Source: a candidate division WOR-1 bacterium RIFCSPHIGHO2_01_FULL_53_15 (lineage in GTDB: Bacteria; Margulisbacteria; WOR-1; O2-12-FULL-45-9; XYB2-FULL-48-7). From it: DNA of 64,000 nt. The notes below the pieces were generated by a model, which made no database searches, was not told the origin of the DNA, and saw only the letters and a list, made by a program, of their open reading frames with translations. The position numbers and the translations under genes were made by a program. The first letter of the stretch is position 1; the number at the start of each line of letters is the position of its first letter. Of the stretch, positions 17,013 to 34,384 are shown piece by piece. The stretch covers positions 307-64,306 of the forward strand of contig METM01000024.1 of NCBI GenBank assembly GCA_001772335.1, read 5' to 3'.

Positions 17013-20000
17013 TTATAAGGACCCTCCCGGTTTTCTCTTTGGCTTATGCGGCCTGGGTACGAAAGCGAAAAGCAGTTCTCGGGCGCGATCGACCGCCTGA
17101 CGCGTGCCGGCCGACAGATTTTCGCTATAAGCGAACTGCGCGTAAAGGTTCATATAGGCCAGGTTAAGATATTTCTGCTTGGAGCCCTTGAGCGAAATGG
17201 CCTTGACGATCGCCAGCTGATGATAAGTCGAGGCCAGGAGATCGTGGAGATCAAAGAGCGGCGGCTCTTTTTTCTCTTTCGCCGTAGCGGCCGCCTGCTC
17301 CAGTCTTTGGCGGACGCCCGGAGTTTTCGCATCTTTGTTGTCCAGAATGATCTCGGCCCTTTTCAGGATTGCATCTCTCTGAGTGTTATCGCCCTGTTTC
17401 TGGTATTCGGCGGCCATGACGGTGTAGGCCATGGCGAGCTTGAGATCGAATTTGGCCGCCAGGAGGAAGCGGCTGCGCTCCGGCTGGAGCTCGATCATCT
17501 GGCGGATCTCGGGCGTCAGGACGGCCGTCGCCTGCACGAGTTCTTTTATCACCGCCGCCGGGGTTTGGCCGTTCTTGCTATGGATGAGATGAAGATCGGC
17601 CAGGACGAGCGCGGCTTCGATCCTAAGATAGGCCGTGGCGGAGATCTCCCTGTTTTTCATGGCGCCTTCGATATTATCGATCAAGCTCTGGACGCTGGGA
17701 AAATCAATGTCGTAGATGTCTTTTTGGTCATAACATCTTTCACCGTCTTCATCGAGGTTTTTGCACTGGCTGAGCGGCACCTGCCTTGTGACGGTGACCT
17801 CCCAACCGCCGCCCGCGCGGGAGACGGAGGCATCGCTTTTATTGATCTGGAAAGTAATTGGGTCATTGAGCGTGGCCCGCCACCAATAATCTTTCTCATC
17901 TATTCTTGCTTCCGTGATCGTTGCCTGGTTTTTCCGGAGACTCAGGAGTCCCATCAGATTATACGCGTCGCCGTTTAATTCGGGCTGATAAGGCAGGGAA
18001 AAGTCGGGCCGGACCGTGATCTTATAAAAATCGCCCTCGACCAGCGGCTGGTTCGGCGTAATAAACTTAAAAGTTCTCATGAATGGATTGTTCAGCCGCC
18101 TGAAAGTTGAAAGACGCAGCTCGTTGTCGGCCATCTGGATGAGGAGGCCGGCCCGCAGGTCGGCTGCCCGTTCCTCAAATCTGTCATCAAGCTCAGGGGA
18201 GAGCCGGTTCCGCTGGCGCAGGACCGCCTCCCCCTTATCAAGATACGAACCAGCCAGCTTTGTCAGCTCGTCGGCAATGTCCAGACGGAAGTTGAGAATG
18301 GTATTGGCTTGTCTGATCAATTCTCTGGTTGTCCGCAATGAGGTCGTTGAGATAACGTCGGCCAGCGAGAGCCAAAACCCCCTGACCAATTCTTTGCTGT
18401 AGACAAGCTGGTAAAGGTCATAAGAGGCCATGACAGAGTTATAGCCGAAATTCTGCGTGAGCAGCCGATCCGTCTTCTTGATGAATTCAGCCGGCAGGAG
18501 ATCAGGCGCGGCTTTTTGAAGGAGATCTAGTGCTGCTTGAAAAGTCTTTCTTGAATCCTCCTCATATTTCTTGGGGTCATCATTTTTTTGCGAGGTGGAA
18601 AGGACCAAACTGTCGGAGAGCATTTTCAGGGCCAGAGCGATGAGCTGGTTGGCCCGGGCCAGGAAATAGCGGTTGTCGCCGTAGGGCGAGCCCTCAATGA
18701 TCTCGGTAAGACCGGCGTCAAGATAAGCCAGTATCTGGCAGAAGTCCTGATAGCCGGCTTCGTTATACGGCTTGTATGGATTTTCCAGCGCCAGGCCGGC
18801 CAGCCGGAGCAGGTCTTTGCCTTTCAGCACGCGGAAGATCTCGTGACTGCCGGCGTTCATCTCTGCTTCGGTGATGTGGCCGGCCTGATAAGAACTGTCC
18901 AATGACTTCTTGATCTCGTCGACGGAGGCGACGACCTCGATCCCGGAGGTTGCCAGGCTAAGCCCCCGGTTGTTTTTGAGATTGATCTCGGCGACGGCCT
19001 GGAAGAGTTTTTGGCTGACCTCGTAATGGTCCCGTGACGCGTCATAATTTTTTTCTTTGATCAACTGCTGGGCGATCCGGGCATGGAGGTCGGCGGCGAT
19101 GATGATGCCGTTAATGATGGCGTAATATTCGCGGTTGCTGTCACTGCCCTTTGGATTGAGGCGCTTGAGGGCGTCTTCGGCCAGCGCCAGGCCGATCTTG
19201 TAAGTTTCGGAGCGGGCTTCGCGCAGCAGGGAATAGCCCTCGGCAATTGAAAGGAGGAGGCGCGGGTACTCGTAATCCTGGCTGGGGACCTGCGGCGAGG
19301 CAAAGAAACGGGCTTCGATCTTTTTCTGTTCGAGTATCTGATCCTTCAAGCGCCGGCCGAGCCCGATGCTCTTTCTGACCTGCGACTGGTCATTATTCTC
19401 GATCGCCTTCTGGGTATAGACGCGGTGGAGAATGAGCATGTTGTCCCAGAAAGTCGACGGCTGATCGAGATAATCGGCTATGACCGGCGAGATCCCTTTC
19501 ACGATCTTAAGCAGATCCGGATTGACTTCCCGGGTGGTTTTCATGGCATCGCGCAGGAGCGAGAGAGGGTTTAGTTTGAAGCGGGCGACCGCCTCGAGCA
19601 GTTGTTCCACCGTCTTGAGCGGCAGATCGCCGCGCATCAGCCGGAGAGCCAGCTTCTTCTCGTTGAGTTTTCTGAGATGGACGCGCCGGTCGAAAATATC
19701 GCCGATGGAGCGTTTGATCTTTAATTCCTTGGCCGATAATTTGTTCGGGTCGACGACCGCGCCGTAGGGCGTAGCGTACGGCGGCAGGTCGCGCTCTTCG
19801 GGATAGGCGGAGAGGCAGTTGTCTCCCTTCTGCGGCGGCCGGCAGACCCGCTGGCCGATCTGCGAGGGGAGAACAAAATCCGGGATCTCCCGGATAATAG
19901 CGTTAGGGTTGGGGAGCGGCGCGGGCGGCGCCGGCAAAGGGTAAGGAGCCAGATTGGGATTATTTGCCAGTTTGGCGGGACGAAAATCGAATTGATCATT

Positions 20001-21077
20001 GTTCAGAGAAGCGAGAAATCCTTGAAATGGCTTAATGAGCCCGCCTTTTAGCGGTGTTATATGGGTGGCATAGACCGCGTCTTCCGGCACGTTATAGTAA
20101 ATGCTTAAGATCGGCTTGATGCCTTTGGCTTTCAGGGCCGGATGGGTGCCGTTAAAGACCGAAATGATCGACGGGAACTGCCAGTCAACTTTTGCCCCGG
20201 CTTCGCCGATGCCGTACGGGAGTTTAAGTAATTTGGTTTTTGGGCGATCGGGATGGCTTTTGTTGTATTTCTCGAGATCGTCGTTGTATTTGTCGATCTT
20301 TTCATCCATTTGAATAAAAGAGCGCGCCAGCCAATCGCCCACCTGGCCGCATTCCTGGGCGTGTAAGGGGCAATACGAATCAAAAAGAATAATGCCTATT
20401 TTGTTGGCGCCGTCGGCCGGATAGCCCGGATCGGTAGGCGGATAATATTGGAAAAAGTCAGCCTCTTCATTGATCCCGCCTTGGGCGATATTGGGGCGCA
20501 GGACGTGAAAATTCACGCCCCAGAGCGCATTCTCGACTTTTTCTTCGTTCGCTATTTTGAGAAAGTTATTAAAGGCCCGCTTATATTTTGTCGGCCCGTT
20601 GACCGAGGTTAATCCAAAATCTCCCGCATCTCCCCAGGGATACCAGTAATAATGGCCGGGCCGCTCGTCAAGCTCGCCAAAACTCCGGCCGTTCATTTCG
20701 TGGCCGATCGGATGGATCAATACTGGCACGCCGGCCGCTTTTACGCCGGCTAGGAAGCGCCGGATGATCGGATCATATTGGCCGCTGATGAGCCAGTCGA
20801 GATACCGGTCATTTTTGCGGTTGCATTCCATTTTGATGAAAGTGAGTATGCCTTTCTCCCAATTCAGCCGGACTTCTTCGACGGGGAACTGCCAGGCGTC
20901 CTCGATCTGCATAAAAATGACCTTGACATCGACATGGCCGATCTCTTCGTCGAATTTCTTTTCCCCTTCGCGGCTGATCACGGCGCTATTGACGGTGCCG
21001 CTTAAGGGGCCGCTGTCCTGGAAATTGATCATTTTATAGCCGGTGCCGGTTGGCCCGAGGGCCGAAAGTTCGCTCAT
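17013..21077 (-). CDS. 1354-aa protein: N-terminal GH26-like glycoside-hydrolase domain fused to a ~1000-aa helical solenoid
   Basis: aa ~60-330 carry VLIHPIGHEMNGRSFG...YYWYPWGD (compare GH26 RPLHEMNG-W-WWG, the acid/base Glu) and LPYGIGEAGA (a nucleophile-type xxE-G). The rest is helical and repeat-like. ATGA overlap with the upstream 529-aa gene; 12-nt gap to the next gene. Confidence 0.6.
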   Translation of the reverse strand: MSELSALGPTGTGYKMINFQDSGPLSGTVNSAVISREGEKKFDEEIGHVDVKVIFMQIEDAWQFPVEEVRLNWEKGILTFIKMECNRKNDRYLDWLISGQYDPIIRRFLAGVKAAGVPVLIHPIGHEMNGRSFGELDERPGHYYWYPWGDAGDFGLTSVNGPTKYKRAFNNFLKIANEEKVENALWGVNFHVLRPNIAQGGINEEADFFQYYPPTDPGYPADGANKIGIILFDSYCPLHAQECGQVGDWLARSFIQMDEKIDKYNDDLEKYNKSHPDRPKTKLLKLPYGIGEAGAKVDWQFPSIISVFNGTHPALKAKGIKPILSIYYNVPEDAVYATHITPLKGGLIKPFQGFLASLNNDQFDFRPAKLANNPNLAPYPLPAPPAPLPNPNAIIREIPDFVLPSQIGQRVCRPPQKGDNCLSAYPEERDLPPYATPYGAVVDPNKLSAKELKIKRSIGDIFDRRVHLRKLNEKKLALRLMRGDLPLKTVEQLLEAVARFKLNPLSLLRDAMKTTREVNPDLLKIVKGISPVIADYLDQPSTFWDNMLILHRVYTQKAIENNDQSQVRKSIGLGRRLKDQILEQKKIEARFFASPQVPSQDYEYPRLLLSIAEGYSLLREARSETYKIGLALAEDALKRLNPKGSDSNREYYAIINGIIIAADLHARIAQQLIKEKNYDASRDHYEVSQKLFQAVAEINLKNNRGLSLATSGIEVVASVDEIKKSLDSSYQAGHITEAEMNAGSHEIFRVLKGKDLLRLAGLALENPYKPYNEAGYQDFCQILAYLDAGLTEIIEGSPYGDNRYFLARANQLIALALKMLSDSLVLSTSQKNDDPKKYEEDSRKTFQAALDLLQKAAPDLLPAEFIKKTDRLLTQNFGYNSVMASYDLYQLVYSKELVRGFWLSLADVISTTSLRTTRELIRQANTILNFRLDIADELTKLAGSYLDKGEAVLRQRNRLSPELDDRFEERAADLRAGLLIQMADNELRLSTFRRLNNPFMRTFKFITPNQPLVEGDFYKITVRPDFSLPYQPELNGDAYNLMGLLSLRKNQATITEARIDEKDYWWRATLNDPITFQINKSDASVSRAGGGWEVTVTRQVPLSQCKNLDEDGERCYDQKDIYDIDFPSVQSLIDNIEGAMKNREISATAYLRIEAALVLADLHLIHSKNGQTPAAVIKELVQATAVLTPEIRQMIELQPERSRFLLAAKFDLKLAMAYTVMAAEYQKQGDNTQRDAILKRAEIILDNKDAKTPGVRQRLEQAAATAKEKKEPPLFDLHDLLASTYHQLAIVKAISLKGSKQKYLNLAYMNLYAQFAYSENLSAGTRQAVDRARELLFAFVPRPHKPKRKPGGSL

Positions 21078-22663
21078 GGCTGGCTCCTGTCTTTTCGCAT
21101 TTCATCGCGGATGCGGTTCTTGACGCTGTCATCAAGATCGAGGACAAAGTCGAGCAGGTGGTCGACGACATAATTGAGCCGCTCCCGCGGCGTCTTGAGA
21201 GCGCGGATGTCAAATTCGTATTTGACGGGCGTGTTATCCTGCAGGGCGACATCGCGCAGGCCGAGCTCAAGTCCTAAATTGCCGATGGCGGCTTTGGGGG
21301 TGGGATCCCAATCAAAGCCGACCCCGCGCGCGGTCCGCGAAAACCGGCTTTCTTCCCTGACCAGGAGGCCGAGGGCCTCGCGCAGGTCGGCGTATTTCGG
21401 CTGATAGAGCTTGTCCCAGTCGATATATTTTTCAAATTCCGCCGCGGGATCAAATTCCGTCGCGGGATCGGGTTCCGCCGCGGGATCGAGGGGAAAAAAA
21501 CAGGCGATCAGGATGCCGAAGAACGCCTCGAGGCCGATCTTCAAAAAACCGCCGTATTTGCGGGTGGTCTCCGGCCGGTCGAAAAGAATGACTTTATAAG
21601 CGCTGATCGCATCCTCGGCGGTCAGCTTATCCCTGGCTTTGATGTGGGCGTTCAGCAATTCCGCGGTCAGCTCGTCAAAACGCAGGTCTTTCCGGCTCAT
21701 TTCGTCGACCCACCAGAGAGCCGGGAGAAAGCGGCCCTGTTTTTCGCCGGACCAAATGACGCTCTTTGCCAGCAGATCCAGGACATTCGACTCGGCAAGT
21801 CCCCGCGAAGGGGGATTGAAGATATAGCGATAGCCCTTGAAGATGCGGATCTGGTTGAGATAGCCCTCGCGGGAGATATCGTCGATGCCGTGGCTTGCGA
21901 GGCAATCCGGGTTGTCCAACATCGCCTCGATCTCATTGGAGAACTCGATGGCGCCGCCGGGATTGTGCAGGCTCAGGGCCTGCAGGAGAAAAAGCTGGGT
22001 CTGGATGTAGTCGTGGACGGGATAAACCTGGTGCGATTTCTTCTCGGCATAAGGCAGGTGCCGGAGCTGGCTGTGGTCGACATTGGTCGCCAGGTTATAG
22101 CGGAGGAACTGCTCGGCGAGGGTCAGGTATTCCGGTTTCGCGCTGATGAAGAACATGTCGATCGCCCACCGGGCCGCGGTCATGAGCAGTTTAGCGTCTC
22201 TTTTGGGCATATCCATTTTGAACGGCCGGTCGATCAGGAAGCCGCCGTCCATTTTGCCGAAACCGTCGACAGCGAGGATTTCGAGGGCGTCAATCACACC
22301 CGCCGGCCGATACGGTTCGCTCTCCTTGCGGCAGAAATCCTGCCGCCGGCCTGTCAGCTCCTCTGCCTTCGCCTCGGCCGCGACCAGGCCGCTCTCCACG
22401 GCGGCGTTGGAAATTATGTCGGTAATATAGCCGATGACGCGCGCCCTTTCATTCCGTAGCAGGGTGCGGTTCCGCTCAAGCAGGCAGACGTGATAATCGG
22501 TCTCGCTCCCGCCTTTTTTTTGGACGCATTCGTCGGGGACGGAGAGCTGGCCGCGCTGGAAGTTGGTCACGCTGGGTTTGTGAAAATATATATTCCTTGT
22601 GTCAATGCCGCCGCCGCCGTTTTGGTAAACGGGGATGGCCGGCAACTCTGATATGTTGGTCAT
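21074..22663 (-). CDS. 529-aa hypothetical protein with one predicted TM helix and an acidic Pro-rich tandem repeat
   Basis: The ORF follows promoter copy P3 and SD GGAAAGGG. Single hydrophobic segment FLKIGLEAFFGILIACFFPL, followed by DPAAEPDPATEFDPAAEF. I recognise no family. Confidence 0.6.
   Translation of the reverse strand: MTNISELPAIPVYQNGGGGIDTRNIYFHKPSVTNFQRGQLSVPDECVQKKGGSETDYHVCLLERNRTLLRNERARVIGYITDIISNAAVESGLVAAEAKAEELTGRRQDFCRKESEPYRPAGVIDALEILAVDGFGKMDGGFLIDRPFKMDMPKRDAKLLMTAARWAIDMFFISAKPEYLTLAEQFLRYNLATNVDHSQLRHLPYAEKKSHQVYPVHDYIQTQLFLLQALSLHNPGGAIEFSNEIEAMLDNPDCLASHGIDDISREGYLNQIRIFKGYRYIFNPPSRGLAESNVLDLLAKSVIWSGEKQGRFLPALWWVDEMSRKDLRFDELTAELLNAHIKARDKLTAEDAISAYKVILFDRPETTRKYGGFLKIGLEAFFGILIACFFPLDPAAEPDPATEFDPAAEFEKYIDWDKLYQPKYADLREALGLLVREESRFSRTARGVGFDWDPTPKAAIGNLGLELGLRDVALQDNTPVKYEFDIRALKTPRERLNYVVDHLLDFVLDLDDSVKNRIRDEMRKDRSQP
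21434..21487 (-). repeat. 3 x 18-bp in-frame tandem repeat (encodes DPAAEP/DPATEF/DPAAEF)
   Basis: Plus strand: aaattccgccgcgggatc / aaattccgtcgcgggatc / gggttccgccgcgggatc. Confidence 0.75.
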
Positions 22664-22686: not shown

Positions 22687-22716
22687 ATTATCGTCAAGAA
22701 CTGGCAAAAATTTCAC
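22687..22716 (-). promoter_or_regulatory. ECF-like promoter motif copy P3 (TGAAAT-N16-CGATAA)
   Basis: Minus strand: GTGAAATTTTTGCCAGTTCTTGACGATAATATT. The TGA inside GTGAAA is the stop codon of the 2154-aa gene. Spacing is confirmed by track ORF 22597..23109 (YNIIVKNWQKFH). Confidence 0.5.
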
Positions 22717-25700
22717 GATTTCGAAGGGAGTTTTTCCCGAAGCTTTTCCGCCAATATTTTCCAGACCAGGCTGCTCTTTTTGGCGGGTGAAGCTATGATT
22801 TTTTGCAGAAGGCCGATCGCTTTTTCATTCTCGCCATTCTCCGCGTGGCCTAACGCCGCGACGTATTCATCGCCCTGCCGGTTGGAGTCGGCGTTGTGTT
22901 TTTTCACGGCGGCTGCGCGTTTTTGCCTGAATTTCAGGGGCCCGTATTCATTTGATTTATTCTGCGAATTGCCGGTCTCGCACTGCTTGATGAACCAGAG
23001 CCCGCCCCAATTCCAGCCGGCGGCGGCGAACGCCCAGCCCAAACTGATGAGGGAGCCCTTGTCGAAAGGATTGAAGCCGTACCTGACCCCGTCGGGCACG
23101 ACCTGGTAGAAGTAATAGGAGGCGGCTAACAGGTCGGCCCCGATAAGATATTTGAGGAAGGTCTTGTTCTCCTGCGGCACGGTCGAGGCCTTGCCGAGCG
23201 CGGTGACGACGAAGGCGCCGTACTGCCAGCCCTTGCGGAATAGATTGATAATGCCGCGCAGGGCGGGGTACATGAAGGCCTGGTTCATGGCAGGCCCGAT
23301 GAACATGGACCAGGTCAGCGGCCCATGATCGCTGGCTTCGGTATTGCGGCCGAGCATCTTCCTGGTGTAACTGTAGTTGGCGATGCCGAGAGCGAAGTCG
23401 AGCGCCCACGAAGCCATGAAATAGGGATCGTAGAAATAGGGCATGATCTTGCCGAGACTGAAGAGCGAGACGACGGGCGAGACCTGGCGGGCCAGCTCCG
23501 CCTTGGGGTATTCGTACCAGCTCCTGAACATGAGGTGTTCGTATTTCTGTTTCCAAGTGTCGGCGATCGGCTTGCCGCCCAGGAACTTGCGGATCTCTCT
23601 CAATTCATAGGGGATCAGGACATCCCGGGCCTGCGCGAGGGCGGTATTGTAGCGATTGTTATCCTGATTGTTAACCTGGTTGTAGGTGGTCGGGTGGGAC
23701 TCGAAGGCGGTGGTCTTGACGTGATATCTTAATTTATAACCCAGGGCTAAGGCCAGGGCCAGTACCCCCTGCTCGTCTTCGGAAACGCCCGAGAGCCAAC
23801 CCAGGTTGCGGTTGTAGAGGACAAGCTTGACGAAGTTCTTTTTGTGGACCGCCTGCTCGTAGGCGCCGACGCGGTCAAGCAGAGGCGCGGCGGCCAGCAT
23901 GGCCCCTTTGGGCAGGCCCATCGCGGCCTCGACCATCTCAAAGAGCTGACTGTGTTTGGTGACGAACTGGGTGCCGTTCTCGATCGGCTTGCCGCTGTAT
24001 TTGCCGTTGGCGTCGCGGTCGTGGGTCTTGCCGAGCTGGAGGGACCAGGCGCGGAAAAGGCGCCCGGGCGGGCTGGCCTCGGAAAAGAGCTCGCGGCCGA
24101 TACCGTAGAAATATTCGTCGCGGAACTGCGCCTGCCAGGTGGGAAAGAAGGCCTCGTCTTCGTAGGTGGCGCCGACCTGGCGCTGGCCGTGCACCACGCT
24201 GTGGAACTCGCCGTTGATGAACTCGGGGCGGAGCGTGTACATGATCTCGACGCCGATCTTTTCGGCTTTTGTTAGGTCGGCGGGGAGGAATTTGCGCAGG
24301 GCGGTTTCGATCGCCGCGGAAACGGCGCCCAGGTCATCGGCTTCGAACTTCGTGTCGCCGTTGTCAGTCCGATCCGGTTTTTTAAAGCCCATAGCGTGGA
24401 ATTTTCCGTCGGATTTATTGTAGCGCAGAAAATAGGTCAGCCGCGGCAGGCCCTCTAACGCCGGCAGGGCGGCGTTGAAATATTTTGTCTTGCCGTTAAT
24501 AGTCAGCGCGACGGCCGCCTGGTCGGGGGTCGGGATATAAGAGATCGGCTTGGTCAGCGAGAGGGGGAGCCACTTTATCGTCTTGCCGACCCTGACCCTG
24601 GCCGCGGAGGTGGGGATGGAGAAGAACATTTTTGCCGGCCGCTCGCCCGCGAGTTCTTGGGGGACCCGATCGAGCTTGACTTTTTCCACCCGCGTCAGGA
24701 TCAGCTTGATCTCGCCCTGGCTCTTGATGAGGCGCGGGCGGTATTCTCGGGTCCCTTCATAGTTGTTGGCGTCATTTTGATAGAAATCTTCCTGGCGACC
24801 CATGTGCCTTTGAGGGTTGGCCAGGAACTTTTTGCCTTCGAGATCGAGGAGATCGGCCGCGTCGAGTGTGAGACCGGTATCTTTGCCGTCTTCACCAAAA
24901 AGGCGGAGGGCGCCGTCGGCCTCAAGCCGGGTGGTCAGGTCATCTTTTTCGAGCCGCCAACTCAAGTCCTGATATTTCCCCTTGATCTTGACGTCGGGCA
25001 GGTCGTAAAGATTGGCCGGCAGGGTATAGACAAAATACGGATCGTCCATGATGGAGTCGCGGCGGCGCAGTTTGACGAAAGTCAGCGCGCCGTCTTCCCC
25101 GCGTATCACTTCGAGCGTTTTTCTGGCTTCGGCCGGGTCGGCGAGCGAGCGCGGCAAGTCCCGCAAAGGCACGATCGCCTCTGAACCGTCAGCCTTTCTG
25201 ATGTGGAGCAGGCCGTTCATTTTGAGGGCGCCCTGGCCGAGCTCTTCGGTGTGCTTATCGTCTTGGACCGGCGACCAGGTTTGGCCGGCCGGATCGTAGA
25301 ATATCTTGCCGGAAGCGTTGATCTCCAGCGCTTCAAGCTCTTCGGCGGAATCAACGCCGGCGAATTTCTTTTCGACGGGGAGGGTCTCGCAATTGGTCAG
25401 CAGGGTCGTGAAAGCGATCCGTTTGTTGTCGTCGTAAGTCAGCTTGCGGACGATAAAACCCGGGTTAAAGGGTTGTTTGGCCTCGCGGTCAAAATCGAGA
25501 AAAGCGAATCGGTGGCGGTTGTAGAACTGGTCGGCGTCTTTGTCCTCCGGATCGCGGTAGTTGTCGCCGTAGTCAGCCACCAGCCAGGTGGCGGCGCCGG
25601 TGCGGTCGGCAAAAACATCGAACCTGATGTCGTATTCACGGCCGGCTTCGGTGAATGTTTGGATCTTCTCTTTCGGATGCAGGTGGATGGGATATTCGGT

Positions 25701-28700
25701 CTTGACCCGGCCGAGATAGAAATGTTCTTGCGAATAGGCCTCGAGATAGCGCGCGCCGCGCTCGTTGGCCTTAATCCGGCCATAAGCGGCCTCTTTCCAG
25801 AAATCCTTGCCGTGAAAACCCGCCTCTTGCCGGTCTTCCCTGATAAAGCTGTCGCGGCTCTCAGGATACGGAATGTTGAAATCCTGGCCGTCCGCCGTTT
25901 TGTAGCGGATGCCGACAGAGGCGTCCTGGTAGCGCCAGCCCATGACCCAGTCGATCAGGCGCGCCGGGTCGGGATTGGGGAAATCGGCCTTGAGCGCGTC
26001 CTGGTTGACGACGCGCAGGAGCATGTCTTTGCGGGCGGTATGTTCGAGCTCGGCCGGCAGTTCGCGTTCGCTGTTGATGACAATGTACGCCTCGTCGCAG
26101 ATGTTGTAATACTCGGCGGGGGCAAGGACGAGCACCTCCGGTTTGTCGATAAACCAGAGAGCGCCCTTTTCGGCGAACCGGTCGTATTCTTTGCCGCCGT
26201 ATTCGGAGCGTCCCCAGTCCCTGAACACCTCCTTAAAGCCGGCCGGCGCGTCTTTTTCCCCGGCGATCCAGGTCAGATTGTCGCGGGCGATCTTTAGGCC
26301 GTGCCAGTCGATCAGGTGCTGTGGCGGAAGAACCTTCTCATTGCTGTAAAAGCCGCGGACGCCGCTAAGCGCGTGGCCGGCGACGGTCAGGTCGAACTCT
26401 TTTTCGTGGGCCTCGGGCGGCGTGTTGTTGACGAGCTTGAGCTCATTGGACATCGATCGCGAGAAGGGGAAAATTTCGAGCATATCTTCCCGCCTGACCC
26501 AGAGATATTTGTGGTTTTCGGGCGCCGAGCCAGGCCGGTGGTTGTAGTTCGGATTTCTAAGCCGGACGTGGGTGGCCGGAACGTTATGAGCGGCTAAATC
26601 GTAACCGGCGTCTTCGGGCGAGCTTCGCTCCCGCTCCTTGAGCTGCAAGACCTGGTAGAAGGTGTCGCCCAGACGGGTCTCGGGGGTCGAGAGGTTGGCG
26701 GTCTTTGTCTTATAGTTGTCGTCTCCGGTGTCGAACTTGCGCACGCTGTGAATGATCTCGACCGAAAAGATATCGAGCACTTCCCGGTAGAGTTTGAGCA
26801 GTTCATCATGAGAGATGGCGCCATGAGCGACTTTTAGCCGCAGGCCGCGGGCCTGCTCGCGGAAAAAGAGGCCGCGATACCTGATCGCCTCGTAGGTCAT
26901 CCGGATAAAGGGCTCTTCGCCGTTAAGATCGAACCAATCCTTTGTTATCGTTTGCGTGGCCGGATCTTTGCCCTGCGCGATCATTGCCCGCAGGCGGGGA
27001 ATGTAGGCGTCCGGGGCTTTAATATCATAATAGAGCCGGCCTAACTTCTCAAATTCGCCGATTAGCGCTTCGGCGGCCGCTTTGTCCTGTTCCGGCGTCG
27101 CGCCGGTTTCGGGCAGTTTCAGATAACATTCTTGGAATTTGTCATAGATCTTGTCGCGCTCGTCGCAGATGAACTTTTGCGCCGCCCCGGCGTTACGCAG
27201 GTCCTTGACGTTCTTGATGTCGCCGTAGGGCGGGGTTTCGCCGCAAAGCAAGACCTCGACGAACGGATACTCCTGCATCAACATATTGACAAATTTAGAT
27301 AAATTGCGCTCCGGCTCTTTGATGTAGGCGACCAGGCGGGTGCAGAAAGCGGTCATCTTTTTGCGCATCGAATCGGAGATATAGGGCTCTTCCTGGACGT
27401 TGAAGAGCGAGCGCTTCTGGTTGATGGCCGAGCCGATAGCGGCGGGGCCGGAGTGCCAGTCGGCGAAGAGAGTCCAGCCGCCGAAGTAGGCGGTCGCCAG
27501 GTCAAGGAAACAGGCGAGCGGGTCTTTGACGCCCAGGGCGGTCAGGGCCAGCAGTCCGCCGTATTTCAAGCCCAGGCCGCTGACATACTCCACCCCCATC
27601 TGGTGCATGGTCGAATATCTGATCCGGTTGGCCGTGCGGAAAGCGGAGCGCAGTTTATTGACCAGGTCGTCTTCCGCGCGCAGGCAGCGCTTGAGCCGCT
27701 CCCGCAAAGCCGCGGCCGCGTCGTCTTTCAGGAAGACGGGGAGGTTGCCGAGCAGGATCATTTCGTCCTCCGGTTTTTCCATGACAGTCGCGACAAGCTT
27801 TTCCAGGTCCTCGATATCCCGTGTTTCATTCATTAGCGCCTCGGTTTTGATCAGGCCGCGGAGGATCTCCATTAACCGCGGAAATTCCCCATCGGGGTGT
27901 TGGTCGTTTATCGCTTCCATGACCAGCCGGGCCTTTTCGCCCTGGATCTGCTTGATAAGATTTTCATTTAGAGTTTTGAGCGCTTTGTCCCTGGAGATGT
28001 CTTTGGTGCTCGGGGCTTCGATCCTGCGGATCCGCTCGCCGTCTTTGAGCTCAAAGTAGATCTGGTTATCCGTCCCTTTTTCGGCCTGGATCTTGACGGT
28101 GCGGCCGTCGCTCAGTTTCGCCTCCCGGTAATTCAAATGATCAACGCGCGCCTTGAGGCGGTTTGACCACTCTTCCGTCTTTCGCTCGCGCCAGTGACTG
28201 TCGAGCCAGGGATTGAAGCGCGCAACCAGGCCGACCCCGAGTGCGGCAAAGCCGGGCAGGGAGCTGAAATAATGATCAAGCAGGGCGCCGGCGCCGAAGA
28301 TCGTGAAGGTCAGCGACCGCCACGCGGTGTAGTTGATCTTGAGCAAGATCTGCGCGTTGGCTAAGCTCATCGCGGTGACGATCTGCCTCTTTGAGTAGGG
28401 AAGATGCAGTGTCGCCATCCGGCTGTTGAACGCGCTTCTGATCTGCAGATAAGTGACGCCCGCCGTCAGGGCGGTGACCCCGCCGATGAACGGGAGATAG
28501 ACGGAGCTGAAAGCGTCTTTGAAGTCGTCCCACCAGCCGCCGGGCGTATGATGGGCGGCCACCCCGCCGTAGAGCATATTAGCGGCGACAAAGACGGGGG
28601 TCAGGAGCGTGCCGAATTTTAAGATCTTGCCCCACTTTGAATGAGGGTCTTTTATCTCATGGGCGAAAAGCGTGCAGGTGATGGCCCCGGCCGTGCCGGG

Positions 28701-29177
28701 AGCCAGGAACCAGAAAGCGTTGACGCCCGCGAGCGTCAGGCCGATGGTGACCGCGCCGACAGAGGCGGCCGCCATGAGGAACTTGACCGCCGAATAGTTC
28801 TGGACCGAAGCCGCCAGGTCCGACTGGATGGCACAATGGACGTTTTCCAGCCCGGCGGCGATGTTTGAGAGCGCGGCGTCCGTGCGGTCAAAGAGAGGCG
28901 AAACCTGTTCGGCCTTGATCCGGCCGAGCATGTGGGGCTGGATCTCATTCAGATCGGAAATTGCCGGGCGGAAATTCGATTTTAGGATGCCGCGCTCGGC
29001 CAGCAGGTTGAGGACGTCGTCATGGCCGCCGGCCGCCGGGGTTAATTCGCGCAGGCCGGCGGAAAGACAATCGCGGTTGAGATAACCGGCTTTGCTGTAG
29101 AGCGAAGTCAGGCGCGGAGAAATGGTCTTTCTCGCGAAATCCTGCACTCTTGGCGCTATGAATGATTTAAGACCCAT
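22713..29177 (-). CDS. 2154-aa polytopic membrane protein of unknown function (two TM clusters flanking a ~1300-aa soluble region)
   Basis: Single uninterrupted ORF. Hydrophobic helices lie at aa ~130-320, ~533-573 and ~1890-2080. I see no Walker A, HExxH or GT2 D,D,D,QxxRW motif. Antisense track ORFs in this span are Arg/Gly/Asp-rich shadows. Confidence 0.75.
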   Translation of the reverse strand: MGLKSFIAPRVQDFARKTISPRLTSLYSKAGYLNRDCLSAGLRELTPAAGGHDDVLNLLAERGILKSNFRPAISDLNEIQPHMLGRIKAEQVSPLFDRTDAALSNIAAGLENVHCAIQSDLAASVQNYSAVKFLMAAASVGAVTIGLTLAGVNAFWFLAPGTAGAITCTLFAHEIKDPHSKWGKILKFGTLLTPVFVAANMLYGGVAAHHTPGGWWDDFKDAFSSVYLPFIGGVTALTAGVTYLQIRSAFNSRMATLHLPYSKRQIVTAMSLANAQILLKINYTAWRSLTFTIFGAGALLDHYFSSLPGFAALGVGLVARFNPWLDSHWRERKTEEWSNRLKARVDHLNYREAKLSDGRTVKIQAEKGTDNQIYFELKDGERIRRIEAPSTKDISRDKALKTLNENLIKQIQGEKARLVMEAINDQHPDGEFPRLMEILRGLIKTEALMNETRDIEDLEKLVATVMEKPEDEMILLGNLPVFLKDDAAAALRERLKRCLRAEDDLVNKLRSAFRTANRIRYSTMHQMGVEYVSGLGLKYGGLLALTALGVKDPLACFLDLATAYFGGWTLFADWHSGPAAIGSAINQKRSLFNVQEEPYISDSMRKKMTAFCTRLVAYIKEPERNLSKFVNMLMQEYPFVEVLLCGETPPYGDIKNVKDLRNAGAAQKFICDERDKIYDKFQECYLKLPETGATPEQDKAAAEALIGEFEKLGRLYYDIKAPDAYIPRLRAMIAQGKDPATQTITKDWFDLNGEEPFIRMTYEAIRYRGLFFREQARGLRLKVAHGAISHDELLKLYREVLDIFSVEIIHSVRKFDTGDDNYKTKTANLSTPETRLGDTFYQVLQLKERERSSPEDAGYDLAAHNVPATHVRLRNPNYNHRPGSAPENHKYLWVRREDMLEIFPFSRSMSNELKLVNNTPPEAHEKEFDLTVAGHALSGVRGFYSNEKVLPPQHLIDWHGLKIARDNLTWIAGEKDAPAGFKEVFRDWGRSEYGGKEYDRFAEKGALWFIDKPEVLVLAPAEYYNICDEAYIVINSERELPAELEHTARKDMLLRVVNQDALKADFPNPDPARLIDWVMGWRYQDASVGIRYKTADGQDFNIPYPESRDSFIREDRQEAGFHGKDFWKEAAYGRIKANERGARYLEAYSQEHFYLGRVKTEYPIHLHPKEKIQTFTEAGREYDIRFDVFADRTGAATWLVADYGDNYRDPEDKDADQFYNRHRFAFLDFDREAKQPFNPGFIVRKLTYDDNKRIAFTTLLTNCETLPVEKKFAGVDSAEELEALEINASGKIFYDPAGQTWSPVQDDKHTEELGQGALKMNGLLHIRKADGSEAIVPLRDLPRSLADPAEARKTLEVIRGEDGALTFVKLRRRDSIMDDPYFVYTLPANLYDLPDVKIKGKYQDLSWRLEKDDLTTRLEADGALRLFGEDGKDTGLTLDAADLLDLEGKKFLANPQRHMGRQEDFYQNDANNYEGTREYRPRLIKSQGEIKLILTRVEKVKLDRVPQELAGERPAKMFFSIPTSAARVRVGKTIKWLPLSLTKPISYIPTPDQAAVALTINGKTKYFNAALPALEGLPRLTYFLRYNKSDGKFHAMGFKKPDRTDNGDTKFEADDLGAVSAAIETALRKFLPADLTKAEKIGVEIMYTLRPEFINGEFHSVVHGQRQVGATYEDEAFFPTWQAQFRDEYFYGIGRELFSEASPPGRLFRAWSLQLGKTHDRDANGKYSGKPIENGTQFVTKHSQLFEMVEAAMGLPKGAMLAAAPLLDRVGAYEQAVHKKNFVKLVLYNRNLGWLSGVSEDEQGVLALALALGYKLRYHVKTTAFESHPTTYNQVNNQDNNRYNTALAQARDVLIPYELREIRKFLGGKPIADTWKQKYEHLMFRSWYEYPKAELARQVSPVVSLFSLGKIMPYFYDPYFMASWALDFALGIANYSYTRKMLGRNTEASDHGPLTWSMFIGPAMNQAFMYPALRGIINLFRKGWQYGAFVVTALGKASTVPQENKTFLKYLIGADLLAASYYFYQVVPDGVRYGFNPFDKGSLISLGWAFAAAGWNWGGLWFIKQCETGNSQNKSNEYGPLKFRQKRAAAVKKHNADSNRQGDEYVAALGHAENGENEKAIGLLQKIIASPAKKSSLVWKILAEKLREKLPSKS

Positions 29178-29249: not shown

Positions 29250-29301
29250 GGGATTGGCTGTTTGGCGGAAATCAGTGAGTTTGAATTTAGGTTGGGCCGG
29301 G
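29250..29301. repeat. 52-bp direct repeat, copy 1 (partner at 32035-32086)
   Basis: gggattggctgtttggcggaaatcagtgagtttgaatttaggttgggccggg, 50/52 identical to copy 2. It lies just upstream (-15 to -65 relative to the -35 element) of promoter P4. Confidence 0.85.
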
Positions 29302-29397
29302 ATTTTTACCGTGGTCTCGCTAAATTATGGAACTTTCAATTCCTCTGAATGAGTGAGCGTTTTAAGATCTTAGAAAAAAATAGAAAGCTGGGAGGAA

Positions 29398-29426
29398 AGG
29401 AGGCGGCTTAGGGCAAGCCGCCTCCT
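29398..29426 (-). terminator. Stem-loop terminator candidate after the GH16 operon
   Basis: The stem-loop is ggaggcggctt-aggg-caagccgcctcc, 10 nt beyond the stop at 29436. The minus-strand transcript continues UUUCCUCCC (weak U tract). The plus strand has TTTTGTG, so it may be bidirectional. Confidence 0.5.
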
Positions 29427-32034: not shown

Positions 32035-32086
32035 GGGATCGGCTGTTTGGCGGAAATCAGTGAGTTTGAATTTAGGCTGGGCCGGG
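32035..32086. repeat. 52-bp direct repeat, copy 2 (partner at 29250-29301)
   Basis: gggatcggctgtttggcggaaatcagtgagtttgaatttaggctgggccggg. It lies ~120 nt upstream of promoter P5 and ~95 nt downstream of the AAA-ATPase stop. Confidence 0.85.
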
Positions 32087-32179
32087 CTTGATGAAAAATG
32101 CCGGCGGCGGCCAGAATAAGCTGATGGGGGCCGGTCCACATTTTGATTTATTGGTAACGGGAGCGGGGCGGGACGAGGG

Positions 32180-33415: not shown

Positions 33416-33479
33416 TTTACACCATCATGGAATAAAGTCAAGGCCAATTTACAGTATCATGGAAAACGGCCGGAGGCGC

Positions 33480-33513
33480 TTAAAGACCAGAGCGAGCCCG
33501 GCCGGGAATATTT
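33480..33513. repeat. 34-bp direct repeat L, copy 1 (partner at 35245-35278)
   Basis: ttaaagaccagagcgagcccggccgggaatattt, identical in both copies. Each copy lies upstream of a nucleotidyltransferase cassette. Confidence 0.85.
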
Positions 33514-33586
33514 GCCGGCGCGGAAACCATGAGGGCGGCGCCGAGCTGGAAGGCGGCCTTGAGCGAAGCCAGCCAGAGAAATGCAC

Positions 33587-33642
33587 TTGACATTTCTGTT
33601 CATAGGTTATAAGCTATATCGACTATAGGTTATAAACTATAT
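33587..33642 (+). promoter_or_regulatory. Putative promoter (TTGACA) overlapped by an 18-bp direct repeat x2 (operator-like)
   Basis: TTGACA at ~33587. ataggttataagctatat (33602-33619) and ataggttataaactatat (33625-33642) have a 23-bp period and 17/18 identity, ending 20 nt before ATG 33662. Confidence 0.45.
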
Positions 33643-33661
33643 TTATATAACGGGAGTTATC

Positions 33662-34384
33662 ATGTCGATCAATGAGGCGATCCGCGCCGCACAACTGAAG
33701 CTGCTGGATTCATTGGCCGGAACGGCAAAGACGTTCGCCCTGGCCGGCGGCACGGCGCTGGAGCTCTATTATTTAAAACACAGGTTCTCGCGCGATCTCG
33801 ATCTTTTATCGCCGGAATACGGCGCGGCTGAGATCGAGAATATCATCAAGGCCTTTGAGGGGGCCCTCAGCGCCAGGTTCACTCTTGAGAGCGAATTCAC
33901 GGCGCAGAACAGGGCCAGCGTCAGGTTTTACACCGCTCAGGTCCAGGGGAGCGCCGAGCCGCTGAAGATAGATTTTGTCGAGGATGTGCTTTCCCCAAGG
34001 CCGAAGCTAAGGCATTTCAACGGCGTGCCGGTCTATGACGCGGCGGCCATATATTTTCAAAAGATCGTGACGCTGACGGGCGCGCAATTGAGAACGGATG
34101 AGATCGGACGCGAGAGCCCGGCCGGCCGCAATGAGCCGAGGGATATTTTTGACATTTACTATCTGTCCAAAATGATCAGCCCGCTGCATAAATTCCTCAA
34201 AGGCCTAAGCCGGCAATATCAGAGAGGGATGATTCAGTGGTATCGCGGCTATTCAAGACAGGAAATGAAATTAGGGGTTCTTGATCTTGACATTTATGAT
34301 AAGGATTTTAATGCTGCGGAAATGATCTCGCATATTGTCCGTGAGGTCAAAATTTTTATCTCGGAGACGATTGATGAGCTATAA
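33662..34384 (+). CDS. Nucleotidyltransferase AbiEii/AbiGii (DUF1814) toxin-family protein
   Basis: FALAGGTALELYYLKHRFSRDLDLLSPE is the characteristic GGTAL...R.S.D.D motif. 240 aa. Confidence 0.8.
   Translation: MSINEAIRAAQLKLLDSLAGTAKTFALAGGTALELYYLKHRFSRDLDLLSPEYGAAEIENIIKAFEGALSARFTLESEFTAQNRASVRFYTAQVQGSAEPLKIDFVEDVLSPRPKLRHFNGVPVYDAAAIYFQKIVTLTGAQLRTDEIGRESPAGRNEPRDIFDIYYLSKMISPLHKFLKGLSRQYQRGMIQWYRGYSRQEMKLGVLDLDIYDKDFNAAEMISHIVREVKIFISETIDEL

What the first reader, a model, noticed from the sequence alone, without database searches (positions are those of the whole stretch)
22713..29177. 2154-aa membrane giant: two TM clusters bracketing a ~1300-aa motif-less soluble domain
Hydrophobic helices cluster in three places:
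- aa ~130-320: VKFLMAAASVGAVTIGLTLAGV, AFWFLAPGTAGAITCTLFA, FGTLLTPVFVAANMLYGGVAA, VYLPFIGGVTALTAGVTYL, LTFTIFGAGALL, LPGFAALGVGLVA.
- aa ~533-573: a pair of helices.
- aa ~1890-2080: FMASWALDFALGIANY, LTWSMFIGPAMNQAFMYPAL, YGAFVVTALG, LIGADLLAASYYFYQVV, LISLGWAFAAAGWNWGGLWFI.

The intervening region is rich in Asp, Glu, Lys, Tyr and Phe. It has no Walker A, HExxH, DxD/QxxRW or other motif I can recognise.

A 'TM cluster - huge cytoplasmic domain - TM cluster' layout is how very large processive polysaccharide synthases (for example FKS-type glucan synthases) are built. I see no sequence similarity to them, so the resemblance is in layout only. The gene has its own copy of the island promoter and sits next to glucanase genes.
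Basis: inference. Interest (0 to 1): 0.75.

Follow-up and report, generated by a model that had tools for sequence, protein, structure and literature searches.

The report
Giant cryptic cellulose-synthase-like membrane protein
This 2154-residue membrane protein of an uncultivated Saganbacteria (WOR-1) bacterium belongs to a small unannotated family whose C-terminal end is a very distant relative of the catalytic and channel half of bacterial cellulose synthase BcsA, and it sits in a conserved sugar-polymer gene cluster, so it is probably a new, highly divergent kind of polysaccharide synthase/exporter.

Summary
The ORF (22713-29177, minus strand, 2154 aa) is real and is not an assembly chimera. 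An exhaustive HMMER search found about 40 relatives, about 12 of them full-length, in Margulisbacteria/Saganbacteria-type genomes, including a single-cell genome. Pfam, NCBIfam, PDB sequence searches and AlphaFold/Foldseek all gave nothing.

The protein is not motif-less. A 24-sequence family profile of aa 1795-2110 aligns to a diverse BcsA profile with hhalign probability 88% and P = 3e-6, well above shuffled, reversed and cross controls. The alignment places:
- S1799-E-D1801 on the catalytic TED;
- D1839-N-N-R-Y1843 on QxxRW;
- F1989-V-V-T-A on the FxVTxK gating loop;
- four hydrophobic helices on TM5-TM8.

These residues are invariant in 23-24 of 24 members. The donor-binding half of the GT-A fold was not detected.

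The gene heads a conserved block: a TPR or 529-aa protein, a GH8- or GH26-fused helical protein, and a ~1300-aa TPR protein with a beta-rich C-terminus. Relatives often have GT5 and nucleotide-sugar genes upstream. Distant relatives encode the protein as two genes.

The large downstream proteins have no signal peptides, which remains unexplained. Verdict: probably a new, divergent BcsA-like processive synthase/translocon; activity and product are unproven.

The parts
22713..29177 (-). Giant ORF, 2154 aa (GenBank: hypothetical protein A2625_01030, candidate division WOR-1 bacterium RIFCSPHIGHO2_01_FULL_53_15)
   Evidence: colinear full-length relatives
25728..29177 (-). N-module, aa 1 to ~1150: a ~130-aa N-terminal soluble segment, the TM cluster, a lineage-specific insert (aa ~400-500), the TM hairpin, and a soluble domain of unknown fold. 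It is a separate gene in distant relatives.
   Evidence: split mapping; conservation and gap profile
28212..28784 (-). N-terminal TM cluster, aa 132-322 (about 6 helices). Basic loops at aa 173-185, 246-266 and after 322 suggest that the following soluble domains are cytoplasmic (inference from the positive-inside rule).
   Evidence: no similarity to BcsA TM1-4
27459..27590 (-). Hydrophobic helix pair (hairpin), aa 530-573
22716..25430 (-). C-module, aa ~1250-2154: a beta-rich region, the conserved core, the C-terminal helix bundle and a ~90-aa tail. It is a separate gene in distant relatives.
22980..23789 (-). BcsA-like half, aa 1797-2066: finger-helix motif, interface helix, TM5-like (1877-1907), TM6-like (1913-1944), IF3-like (1956-1980), gating loop, TM7-like (2004-2027) and TM8-like (2039-2064)
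   Evidence: hhalign probability 83-88%, P 9e-6 and 3e-6; block-shuffle null 22.5 +/- 3.0 against 52.9; cross-controls at or below 0.2%
23775..23783 (-). S1799-E1800-D1801, aligned to the catalytic TED of BcsA; invariant in 24/24 family members
23649..23666 (-). Q1838-D-N-N-R1842-Y1843. D-N-N-R-Y aligns without gaps to BcsA Q-R-I-R-W. Q1838, R1842 and Y1843 are invariant in 24/24.
23190..23231 (-). G1983-W-Q-Y-G-A-F1989-V-V-T1992-A-L-G-K1996, aligned to the BcsA gating loop FxVTxK. F 23/24, T 24/24, Q1985 24/24, K 17/24.
24102..24122 (-). R1686-D1687-E-Y-F1690-Y1691-G: an invariant acidic motif upstream of SED (R, D, F, Y in 24/24). It is a candidate nucleotide- or metal-binding Asp (inference only).
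29250..29304 (-). 55-nt element, 95% identical to 32035-32089, about 70 nt upstream of the start codon. It is a possible shared promoter or operator. It is preceded by a strong hairpin (about 29399-29425) that ends the upstream GH16 operon.
   Evidence: absent from all other loci
21074..22663 (-). 529-aa protein with no known domain. It has an orthologue in the same position in L007. Other loci have a TPR protein with an N-terminal anchor at this position.
17013..21077 (-). 1354-aa protein: a weakly GH26-like N-terminal domain plus a long helical region. The equivalent proteins elsewhere carry GH8 or GH26 domains.
   Evidence: E about 3e-7 to GH26 proteins; GH8 up to 72 bits; GH26
12837..17000 (-). 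1387-aa protein: TPR-type helical repeats plus a ~290-aa beta-amphipathic C-terminal domain (possible outer-membrane barrel); no signal peptide
   Evidence: TPR; beta moment, C-terminal aromatic signal in orthologues; no signal peptide

Best explanation
The gene encodes the inner-membrane core of a previously undescribed, very divergent synthase-dependent polysaccharide system.

The protein is a natural fusion of two modules.
- The C-module ends in a remote homologue of the acceptor-side and channel half of BcsA-type (GT2) processive synthases.
- This half has an SED finger-helix motif with the catalytic Asp (D1801) and an interface helix with R1842-Y1843 in place of the RW of QxxRW.
- It also has two TM helices, an F-x-V-T-A gating loop of the kind that contacts UDP in BcsA, and two more TM helices.

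Proposed mechanism (inferred):
- The large soluble domains face the cytoplasm.
- A UDP-sugar is bound next to the SED/RY site, and D1801 deprotonates the acceptor hydroxyl.
- The growing chain is pushed through a channel made by the C-terminal helices, possibly together with the N-terminal TM cluster.
- The co-transcribed proteins scaffold, trim and perhaps export the polymer. These are the 529-aa or TPR protein, the GH8/GH26-fused helical protein, and the TPR protein with a beta-rich C-terminus.

Shown here: the family, the module structure, the conserved residues, the profile-level homology and the synteny.
Inferred: catalytic activity, topology, the nature of the polymer (probably beta-linked, judging from GH8/GH26/GH16), and export.
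For: 1. The family is real and colinear. There are 40 representatives, 21 with E <= 1e-30. Eleven relatives (P0002-P0012; nine are 1988-2329 aa, two shorter) have 40-50% identity. They come from independent assemblies, including SAG AM-311-D05.

2. hhalign of the 24-sequence family alignment against nine diverse BcsA sequences (25-59% identical to E. coli BcsA, all with TED, QxxRW and FxVTxK):
- Probability 83%, P 9.1e-6, 232 columns at default stringency.
- C-half against C-half: 88%, P 2.9e-6.
- Nulls: 40 block shuffles 22.5 +/- 3.0 (max 30.8) against 52.9; reversed 26.3; cross-controls P 0.35-0.42; other giant segments P >= 0.37.
- Three sub-branches tested alone give colinear hits at P 4e-4, 2e-3 and 8e-3.

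3. The alignment places SED on TED, DNNRY on QRIRW and G.F.VTA on the gating loop. These residues are invariant in 23-24 of 24 members. Their roles in BcsA are described in PMC8892547.

4. Gene context.
- The downstream block is conserved in about 20 loci: TPR, GH8 (72 bits), GH26, and the 1387-aa TPR family.
- The upstream gene in relatives is GT5, NTP-transferase, UDPGP or UDP-GlcNAc 2-epimerase.
- Several loci, including the whole 64-kb window, contain no other candidate polymerising glycosyltransferase.

5. The organism is diderm: BamA and TamB are encoded in the window.
Against: - No Pfam, NCBIfam or PDB sequence hit for any tested member, even at E <= 10.
- An hhalign probability of 83-88% is below the usual 95% comfort level. 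I chose the template after spotting the motifs. The signal was absent with shallow alignments or single templates.
- The donor-binding half of GT-A (the two UDP-coordinating Asp) is not detectable (probability 0.6%; P 0.23). My candidate D1720-x-D1722 is missing in the distant branch.
- QxxRW is not literally present (Q replaced by D/N/E, W by Y). The gating-loop Lys is displaced by two residues and present in only 17/24.
- The AlphaFold model of aa 1450-2110 with an 11-sequence alignment is low confidence (pLDDT 47, core below 50). Foldseek found nothing.
- The C-terminal helices are only weakly hydrophobic in this protein.
- The large downstream proteins lack signal peptides in every locus, unlike BcsC, BcsZ, BcsB and PgaA.
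- The window itself lacks the GT5 and NTP-transferase genes seen next to most relatives.
Confidence: 0.58

Rival explanations
1. The protein is a non-catalytic translocon or scaffold. The BcsA-like half has lost, or never had, a donor-binding domain and serves only as the membrane channel and acceptor clamp. The polymer is made by a separate soluble glycosyltransferase: the GT5 protein encoded immediately upstream in many relatives. This would resemble the way cytosolic PelF works with the PelD/E/G membrane complex.
For: - The donor half of GT-A is undetectable.
- A GT5 gene lies directly upstream in L001, L002, L014, L019, L020 and L025.
- The huge extra cytoplasmic domains could dock partner enzymes.
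- TPR scaffold proteins are abundant in the block.
Against: - The catalytic Asp of SED, R1842/Y1843, and the gating-loop F/T that contacts UDP in BcsA are invariant. That is hard to explain for a passive channel.
- GT5 is absent from the window and from L003, L006, L011 and L017 next to the giant.
- About 160 conserved residues (aa 1640-1797, with invariant G1656, Q1665, R1686, D1687, F1690, Y1691, G1735) precede SED. That is enough for a compact, divergent donor-binding half.
Confidence: 0.2
2. The BcsA similarity is fortuitous. The family would then be an unrelated giant membrane protein, for example a cell-envelope scaffold, sensor or transporter, that merely resides in glycan-metabolism neighbourhoods.
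For: - No standard profile library or fold search recognises it.
- hhalign probability is below 95%.
- The hypothesis was formed post hoc from motifs.
- Hydrophobic helical regions can inflate profile scores.
- The reversed control reached P 0.03.
Against: - The real score is about 10 SD above block shuffles that keep composition and local motifs.
- Cross-controls and all other segments of the same protein score at background.
- The three functional BcsA motifs (TED, QxxRW, FxVTxK) fall on the family's invariant columns in the correct order.
- The spacing from TED to the RW position is 38-39 residues in both proteins.
- The context repeats the GH8 plus TPR logic of bcs operons.
Confidence: 0.17
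3. The ORF is an assembly or binning chimera, or an artefactual fusion of neighbouring genes.
For: - Distant relatives have the same sequence split into two genes, plus a paralogue of the N-terminus (L023-L026).
- The source is a metagenome-assembled genome.
Against: - Single uninterrupted ORFs of 1988-2329 aa, colinear over the whole length, occur in at least 12 independent assemblies, including a single-cell genome.
- The split in distant relatives is itself conserved across samples (L023 and L025).
- Composition is uniform across the gene.
Confidence: 0.02
4. It is an FKS/GT48-type or Cgs-type (cyclic beta-1,2-glucan synthase) giant glucan synthase, as its layout suggests.
For: Only the layout: TM cluster, large cytoplasmic region, TM cluster, and a very large size.
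Against: - No Pfam hit to Glucan_synthase (GT48), GT84 or GH94 families in any member, even at E <= 10.
- The only detectable relationship is to BcsA-type GT2 enzymes.
Confidence: 0.03

Closest known systems
BcsA, the bacterial cellulose synthase catalytic subunit (GT2 membrane-integrated processive synthases; also CesA, PgaC, chitin and hyaluronan synthases)
   Same: - Colinear profile-level similarity from the TED finger helix, through the QxxRW interface helix, TM5-6 and the FxVTxK gating loop, to TM7-8.
- The catalytic Asp, the Arg and the aromatic residue are invariant.
- The neighbouring genes include a GH8-domain protein (as BcsZ) and a TPR protein with a beta-rich C-terminus (as BcsC).
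   Different: - About 2.5 times larger than E. coli BcsA.
- About 1600 residues of unknown domains precede the similar region.
- The N-terminal TM cluster is unrelated to BcsA TM1-4.
- The donor-binding half is undetectable.
- The motifs are degenerate: SED, [DNE]xxRY, FxVTAxxK.
- No PilZ domain and no BcsB partner were recognised by Pfam or NCBIfam.
- Not recognised by any Pfam GT2 model.
- Distant relatives are split into two genes.
Pel system (cytosolic GT-B PelF, inner-membrane PelD/E/G, PelA hydrolase, PelB TPR plus porin)
   Same: The logic of a soluble GT-B enzyme (GT5 here, in relatives) encoded beside an inner-membrane platform, a glycoside hydrolase and a TPR/porin-like protein. The Pel composition is from my own knowledge of the field and the abstracts listed.
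   Different: - No sequence similarity to any Pel protein was seen in the Pfam scans.
- GT5 is not GT4.
- The membrane component here carries BcsA-like catalytic motifs.
- The TPR and hydrolase proteins lack signal peptides.
Fungal FKS1 (GT48) and bacterial Cgs giant glucan synthases
   Same: Very large polytopic proteins with TM clusters flanking big cytoplasmic domains (layout only).
   Different: No profile similarity. The catalytic region here lies directly before the C-terminal helices, rather than being a central GT48 domain or a GT84/GH94 pair.

Membership tests
GT2 membrane-integrated processive synthases (BcsA type) | [quoted passage not shown] | tested here: met
   hhalign aligns G-V-S1799-E-D1801 to T-V-T-E-D. 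S, E and D are invariant in 24/24. Thr is conservatively replaced by Ser.
GT2 membrane-integrated processive synthases (BcsA type) | Q(Q/R)xRW motif on the membrane-proximal interface helix; Arg and Trp contact the terminal sugar | tested here: inconclusive
   D1839-N-N-R1842-Y1843 aligns without gaps to Q-R-I-R-W. R and Y are 24/24, but Q is replaced by D/N/E and W by Y. An invariant Q1838 sits one residue earlier. The literal motif is absent.
GT2 membrane-integrated processive synthases (BcsA type) | FxVTxK gating loop between TM6 and TM7 that coordinates UDP | tested here: met
   F1989-V-V-T1992-A-L-G-K1996 aligns to F-N-V-T-A-K. F 23/24, T 24/24, A 18/24. The Lys is displaced by two residues and present in 17/24.
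GT2 membrane-integrated processive synthases (BcsA type) | GT-A donor-binding half with two UDP-coordinating Asp (DDG and DxD) | tested here: inconclusive
   No detectable homology of aa 1600-1794 or 1250-1800 to the BcsA N-half (probability 0.6%, P 0.098; P 0.23). D1720-x-D1722 is not universal. Invariant D1687 is a candidate only. The structure model is too poor to decide.
GT2 membrane-integrated processive synthases (BcsA type) | Four TM helices plus interface helices after QxxRW that form the translocation channel | tested here: met
   Colinear alignment of aa 1877-2064 to BcsA TM5-TM8. The AlphaFold model gives long helices there with pLDDT 60-84. Hydropathy is weak in this protein and stronger in relatives.
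GT2 membrane-integrated processive synthases (BcsA type) | Recognition by curated family models (Pfam Glyco_tranf_2_3, Cellulose_synt and related) | tested here: not met
   Zero hits for the window protein and every other member scanned (members of A3 plus distant giants), even at E <= 10. Genuine BcsA sequences carry these Pfam domains.
Bcs-type cellulose synthase complex specifically | C-terminal PilZ domain (c-di-GMP) on the synthase, and a BcsB partner | tested here: not met
   No PilZ or BcsB Pfam hit in the giant or in any neighbour scanned. The tail aa 2066-2154 is short, helical and poorly conserved.
Synthase-dependent exopolysaccharide secretion systems (Bcs, Pga, Pel, Alg) | Operon-encoded glycoside hydrolase or lyase that acts on the polymer | tested here: met
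   GH8 domain in the downstream ~1100-aa proteins of L001, L002 and L025 (72, 46 and 54 bits). GH26 in L003. The window's 1354-aa protein is weakly GH26-like (E about 3e-7). None has a signal peptide.
Synthase-dependent exopolysaccharide secretion systems (Bcs, Pga, Pel, Alg) | TPR-containing outer-membrane beta-barrel porin (BcsC, PgaA, PelB) with a signal peptide | tested here: inconclusive
   TPR confirmed (Pfam TPR_6 35.6 bits in the L001 orthologue; PDB consensus TPR E 8e-4). The C-terminal ~290 aa are beta-amphipathic, and two orthologues end in a canonical ...x-F signal. No similarity to the BcsC or PgaA barrels, and no signal peptide.
FKS/GT48 beta-1,3-glucan synthases | GT48 catalytic domain (Pfam Glucan_synthase) between two TM clusters | tested here: not met
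   No Pfam hit at E <= 10 in any member scanned.

The most novel reading that the evidence does not exclude
The family is a 'half-BcsA' machine. It would be a BcsA-like acceptor site and channel whose canonical GT-A donor half has been replaced by a new fold, or by a separate GT-B (GT5) polymerase docking on the giant cytoplasmic domains. It would be coupled to TPR, hydrolase and barrel-like partners that reach the envelope without classical signal peptides. That would amount to a new architecture for polysaccharide synthesis and export, and possibly a new export route for its own accessory proteins, in the lineage sister to Cyanobacteria.
Probability: 0.2. Interest if true: 0.85.

Novelty: new variant of a known kind. 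Interest (0 to 1): 0.62.

Why it matters
- Membrane-integrated processive synthases (cellulose, chitin, hyaluronan, PNAG, alginate) are among the best-understood polymer machines. They are normally recognised through their GT2 signature.
- This family shows that a lineage close to the cyanobacterial root carries a version so divergent that standard annotation sees nothing. It has about 1600 extra residues, a fused or split two-module organisation, and its own set of TPR and hydrolase partners.
- If the protein is active, it widens the known sequence space of these enzymes. It also gives a handle on the unknown cell-surface polymers of Saganbacteria and Margulisbacteria.
- It offers a natural experiment on which parts of the BcsA mechanism are indispensable: SED, R-aromatic and the gating-loop F/T are kept, while the canonical DxD and QxxRW letters are not.
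- It is also a methodological warning. A word-indexed search of 5.8 billion proteins called this protein an orphan, while an exhaustive HMMER search found about 40 relatives.

Tried and rejected
- Pfam, NCBIfam and PDB sequence searches of the giant, its relatives and the family profiles found nothing.
- The search for homologous proteins with the single protein and with the 10-sequence profile returned only the protein itself, although the relatives are in the collection. I therefore spent the third search on BcsA/PgaC to build a template. It returned only 85-100% identical BcsA sequences and helped little.
- Single-sequence AlphaFold of aa 600-1799 gave pLDDT 32 and is unusable.
- AlphaFold of aa 1450-2110 with an 11-sequence alignment gave pLDDT 47. 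Foldseek against PDB gave a best E of 0.17 and TM <= 0.14, which is meaningless.
- Protein comparison (hhalign) failed internally, so I ran hhalign in run_python.
- hhalign against single BcsA or PgaC sequences, or with only 10-11 family sequences, gave no signal. I report this because it shows the result depends on alignment depth.
- My first guess for the DxD (D1720-x-D1722) is rejected as a family-wide feature.
- The N-terminal TM cluster shows no similarity to BcsA TM1-4.
- The 1387-aa family shows no similarity to BcsC or PgaA beyond TPRs.
- No internal repeats in the giant and no paralogues in the window.
- Rfam found nothing in the window. The 55-nt upstream element is not found in any other locus.
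- The look-up of encoding contigs for P0001 found nothing on record.
- The chimera hypothesis is rejected.

Full report
**1. Observation**

The window contains one uninterrupted ATG-initiated ORF of 2154 codons at 22713..29177 on the minus strand. It is identical to GenBank 'hypothetical protein A2625_01030' of candidate division WOR-1 (Saganbacteria) bacterium RIFCSPHIGHO2_01_FULL_53_15, annotated from an internal start as 2144 aa.

Kyte-Doolittle analysis gives:
- a strong N-terminal hydrophobic cluster (aa 132-322, peaks 1.4-1.9);
- a helix pair at aa 530-573 (1.4-1.5);
- only weak hydrophobicity for the C-terminal cluster (aa 1895-2060, 0.8-0.9).

The GH16 neighbour is confirmed. The repeated upstream element (55 nt, 95% identical, at 29250-29304 and 32035-32089) is also confirmed. 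A strong hairpin after the preceding 130-aa ORF suggests the giant starts its own transcription unit. The window also encodes BamA, TamB and ParAB, so it is chromosomal DNA of a diderm bacterium.

**2. Not an orphan, not a chimera**

Pfam, NCBIfam and PDB sequence searches found nothing. The word-indexed search of 5.8 billion proteins returned only the protein itself.

An exhaustive phmmer search of aa 600-1799 against 1.84 billion representatives found 40 proteins, 21 of them at E <= 1e-30. Eleven relatives (P0002-P0012) are 40-50% identical; nine of these are 1988-2329 aa and two are shorter. Several more distant giants reach 3007 aa. A family HMM shows that all of them are colinear from the N-terminal TM cluster to the C-terminal helices.

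The named members are Candidatus Margulisiibacteriota or Saganbacteria MAGs, plus one single-amplified genome. The distant ones are labelled only 'bacterium'. Conservation is even along the protein. A lineage-specific insert lies at aa ~400-500, and the best-conserved block is aa 1650-2000.

In the most distant loci (L023-L026) the same sequence is encoded by two adjacent genes. The N-half corresponds to profile positions 5-1084 and the C-half to 1155-1990. A third gene is a paralogue of the first ~200 residues. The arrangement recurs in different samples. The window protein is therefore a natural fusion of two modules joined near aa 1150-1250.

**3. Gene neighbourhood**

I compared 24 related loci by tblastn, jackhmmer and Pfam.

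Downstream, the giant is almost always followed by:
- a TPR protein with one N-terminal hydrophobic segment, or the 529-aa protein in the window and L007;
- then a 800-1400-aa protein with a GH8 domain (72 bits in L001) or a GH26 domain fused to a long helical region (the window's 1354-aa protein is weakly GH26-like);
- then a 1130-1420-aa protein of the 1387-aa family. This family has TPR repeats (Pfam; PDB consensus TPR E 8e-4) and a C-terminal ~290-residue beta-amphipathic domain.

Two of the four complete 1387-family orthologues end in a canonical outer-membrane-protein signal (...ATVSF...LDLTF). The window's copy ends ...FVINFDFEQ.

Upstream, relatives carry a GT5 starch-synthase-like protein of 860-1150 aa (six loci). 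Others carry an NTP-transferase, a UDPGP, or a UDP-GlcNAc 2-epimerase fused to an (alpha/alpha)6 GH-like domain. Further out lie a GH26 lipoprotein and sugar ABC permeases.

The window lacks GT5 and the NTP-transferase. Between its UDPGP gene (36011-37297) and the giant it has an AbiEii / AAA_14-DUF4143 pair and a 290-aa/GH16/130-aa operon that carries the second copy of the 55-nt element.

**4. The cryptic BcsA-like half**

Reading the family consensus, I noticed GW.SGVSEDEQG, then QD..RY about 39 residues later. These resemble the TED and QxxRW motifs of GT2 processive synthases (a lead only, note 4).

The first tests were negative:
- hhalign against single E. coli BcsA or PgaC sequences gave probabilities below 3%.
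- AlphaFold with an 11-sequence alignment gave pLDDT 47, with the conserved core below 50.
- Foldseek gave no meaningful hit.
- A Pfam scan of 11 members at E <= 10 showed no recurring GT family.

With a 24-sequence family alignment and a poor BcsA/PgaC profile, hhalign scored 24.3 (P 0.04). This was above 60 block shuffles (15.8 +/- 1.8, max 19.7), the reversed profile (15.5), and all other segments of the giant (13-17). The alignment also put G.F.VTA on the BcsA gating loop, which I had not noticed before.

I then built a diverse template from E. coli BcsA plus eight plasmid-borne BcsA or cellulose-synthase genes. These are 25-59% identical to E. coli BcsA, and all carry TED, QxxRW and FxVTxK. 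Against this template:
- The family profile gives probability 83%, P 9.1e-6 and score 52.9 over 232 columns at default stringency.
- Forty block shuffles give 22.5 +/- 3.0 (max 30.8), and the reversed profile gives 26.3.
- Splitting both profiles at TED gives 88% (P 2.9e-6) for C-half against C-half.
- The region before SED against the donor-binding half gives 0.6%, and the two cross-controls give 0.1-0.2%.
- Three sub-branches of the family tested alone give colinear hits at P 4e-4, 2e-3 and 8e-3.

The alignment maps the following:

| Giant | BcsA |
|---|---|
| S1799-E-D1801 | TED |
| D1839-N-N-R-Y1843 | Q-R-I-R-W (ungapped) |
| aa 1877-1907 and 1913-1944 | TM5 and TM6 |
| aa 1956-1980 | IF3 |
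| F1989-V-V-T-A-L-G-K1996 | FxVTxK gating loop |
| aa 2004-2027 and 2039-2064 | TM7 and TM8 |

Conservation across 24 members:
- S, E, D, Q1838, R1842, Y1843, Q1985 and T1992 are invariant.
- F1989 is present in 23/24.
- Upstream, G1656, Q1665, R1686, D1687, F1690, Y1691 and G1735 are also invariant.
- D1720 and D1722 are not.

According to the Bcs review (PMC8892547), the TED Asp is the catalytic base on the finger helix. The Arg and Trp of QxxRW stack on the terminal sugar. The FxVTxK loop coordinates UDP.

**5. Interpretation**

The most economical reading is that the C-module ends in a very divergent member of the membrane-integrated GT2 synthase superfamily. On that reading the gene heads a bcs-like block (hydrolase, TPR scaffold, possible porin), and the protein is the inner-membrane synthase/translocon of an unknown, probably beta-linked, polysaccharide.

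The positive-inside distribution of charges around the N-terminal helices places the large soluble domains in the cytoplasm. The BcsA-like topology implies the same. Both are inference.

What the other ~1600 residues do is unknown. These are the N-terminal TM cluster, the soluble domain at aa 600-1150, and the beta-rich region at aa 1250-1640. Candidate roles are channel completion, partner docking (for example GT5) and regulation.

**6. Weak points**

- The homology is at 83-88% probability, was tested after a motif-based hunch, and disappears with shallow alignments.
- The donor-binding half of GT-A is not detectable, so catalysis is not established.
- A reading as a non-catalytic channel for a separate GT5 polymerase remains open (about 0.2).
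- The large downstream proteins lack signal peptides in every locus. E. coli BcsC, BcsZ, BcsB and PgaA have them, and so do the small GH26 lipoproteins in the same loci.
- The missing signal peptides conflict with a simple periplasm/outer-membrane role and remain unexplained.
- The window's own locus has lost, or never had, the adjacent GT5 and NTP-transferase genes.

**7. Comparison and novelty**

The closest known family is BcsA-type GT2 synthases.
- Membership features met: TED (as SED), the gating loop, and the TM5-TM8 bundle.
- Inconclusive: QxxRW and the donor half.
- Not met: recognition by curated GT2 models, a PilZ domain, and a BcsB partner.

I therefore describe the protein as working like, and being remotely related to, BcsA. 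I do not file it as a cellulose synthase. FKS/GT48 and Cgs are rejected.

No paper in the searchable library links Margulisbacteria to cellulose synthase. I rate it a new variant of a known kind, with interest 0.62.

Noticed in passing
window 29250-29304 and 32035-32089 (minus strand): A 55-nt element, 95% identical, precedes both the giant and the 290-aa/GH16/130-aa operon. The flanks are unrelated. It has no Rfam match and is absent from all 34 other loci. It may be a shared promoter or operator that co-regulates the two units.
   Followed up: partly
window ~32180-35300: A DUF4143/AAA_14 ATPase (32180-33415, minus strand) and an AbiEii toxin gene (33662-34384, plus strand) sit between the UDPGP gene (36011-37297) and the GH16 operon. 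GC drops to 0.49-0.53 here. This looks like an insertion that displaced the GT5 and NTP-transferase genes found next to the giant in relatives.
   Followed up: partly
window 2499-4463: Six tandem copies of a 333-nt unit (76-87% identical), plus further ~915-nt repeats at 1014-2434, lie inside a long minus-strand reading frame that runs off the window start. It is probably a repetitive surface protein.
   Followed up: no
window 8474-12773: A protein with five PKD domains (10512-12773) and a 676-aa Ser/Thr protein kinase (8474-10504) follow the 1387-aa gene on the same strand. They may belong to the same unit in this genome. They are not conserved in the other loci.
   Followed up: no
window 34830-34956 and 35900-36026: A 127-nt direct repeat (87% identical) flanks about 1 kb next to the AbiEii gene. 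It may mark the boundary of a mobile element.
   Followed up: no
L021-L026 (for example L023 11489-13936, L025 11248-13608): Distant loci carry an extra 730-815-aa gene whose first ~200 residues are paralogous to the giant's N-terminus (soluble head plus first TM helices). This suggests that the N-terminal head is an independent, reusable module.
   Followed up: partly
L003 3714-6089 and L006 7295-9751: The gene directly upstream of the giant in these loci is a UDP-GlcNAc 2-epimerase fused to a GH88/GH76-like (alpha/alpha)6 domain. This is an unusual fusion and hints at an amino-sugar-containing polymer in those lineages.
   Followed up: no
L004 (JAQTMD010000147.1, 3.9 kb): A fragment of the family, 48% identical to the window protein, is binned as Candidatus Omnitrophota. 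Given the short contig and the otherwise Margulisbacteria-restricted distribution, this is probably a binning error.
   Followed up: no
method: The word-indexed 5.8-billion-protein search did not return family members, even when they were part of the query alignment. Yet they are in the collection and were found by the exhaustive representative search. 'Orphan' calls from that tool alone are unsafe for long proteins.
   Followed up: yes
N-termini of the 1387-aa family (window 16900-17000; L001, L002, L023): The N-termini share a loosely conserved, uncharged start (MG.D...L.FNIS / MAI..I..SL...). They have no basic n-region and only mild hydrophobicity. This could be a non-classical targeting signal.
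   Followed up: no
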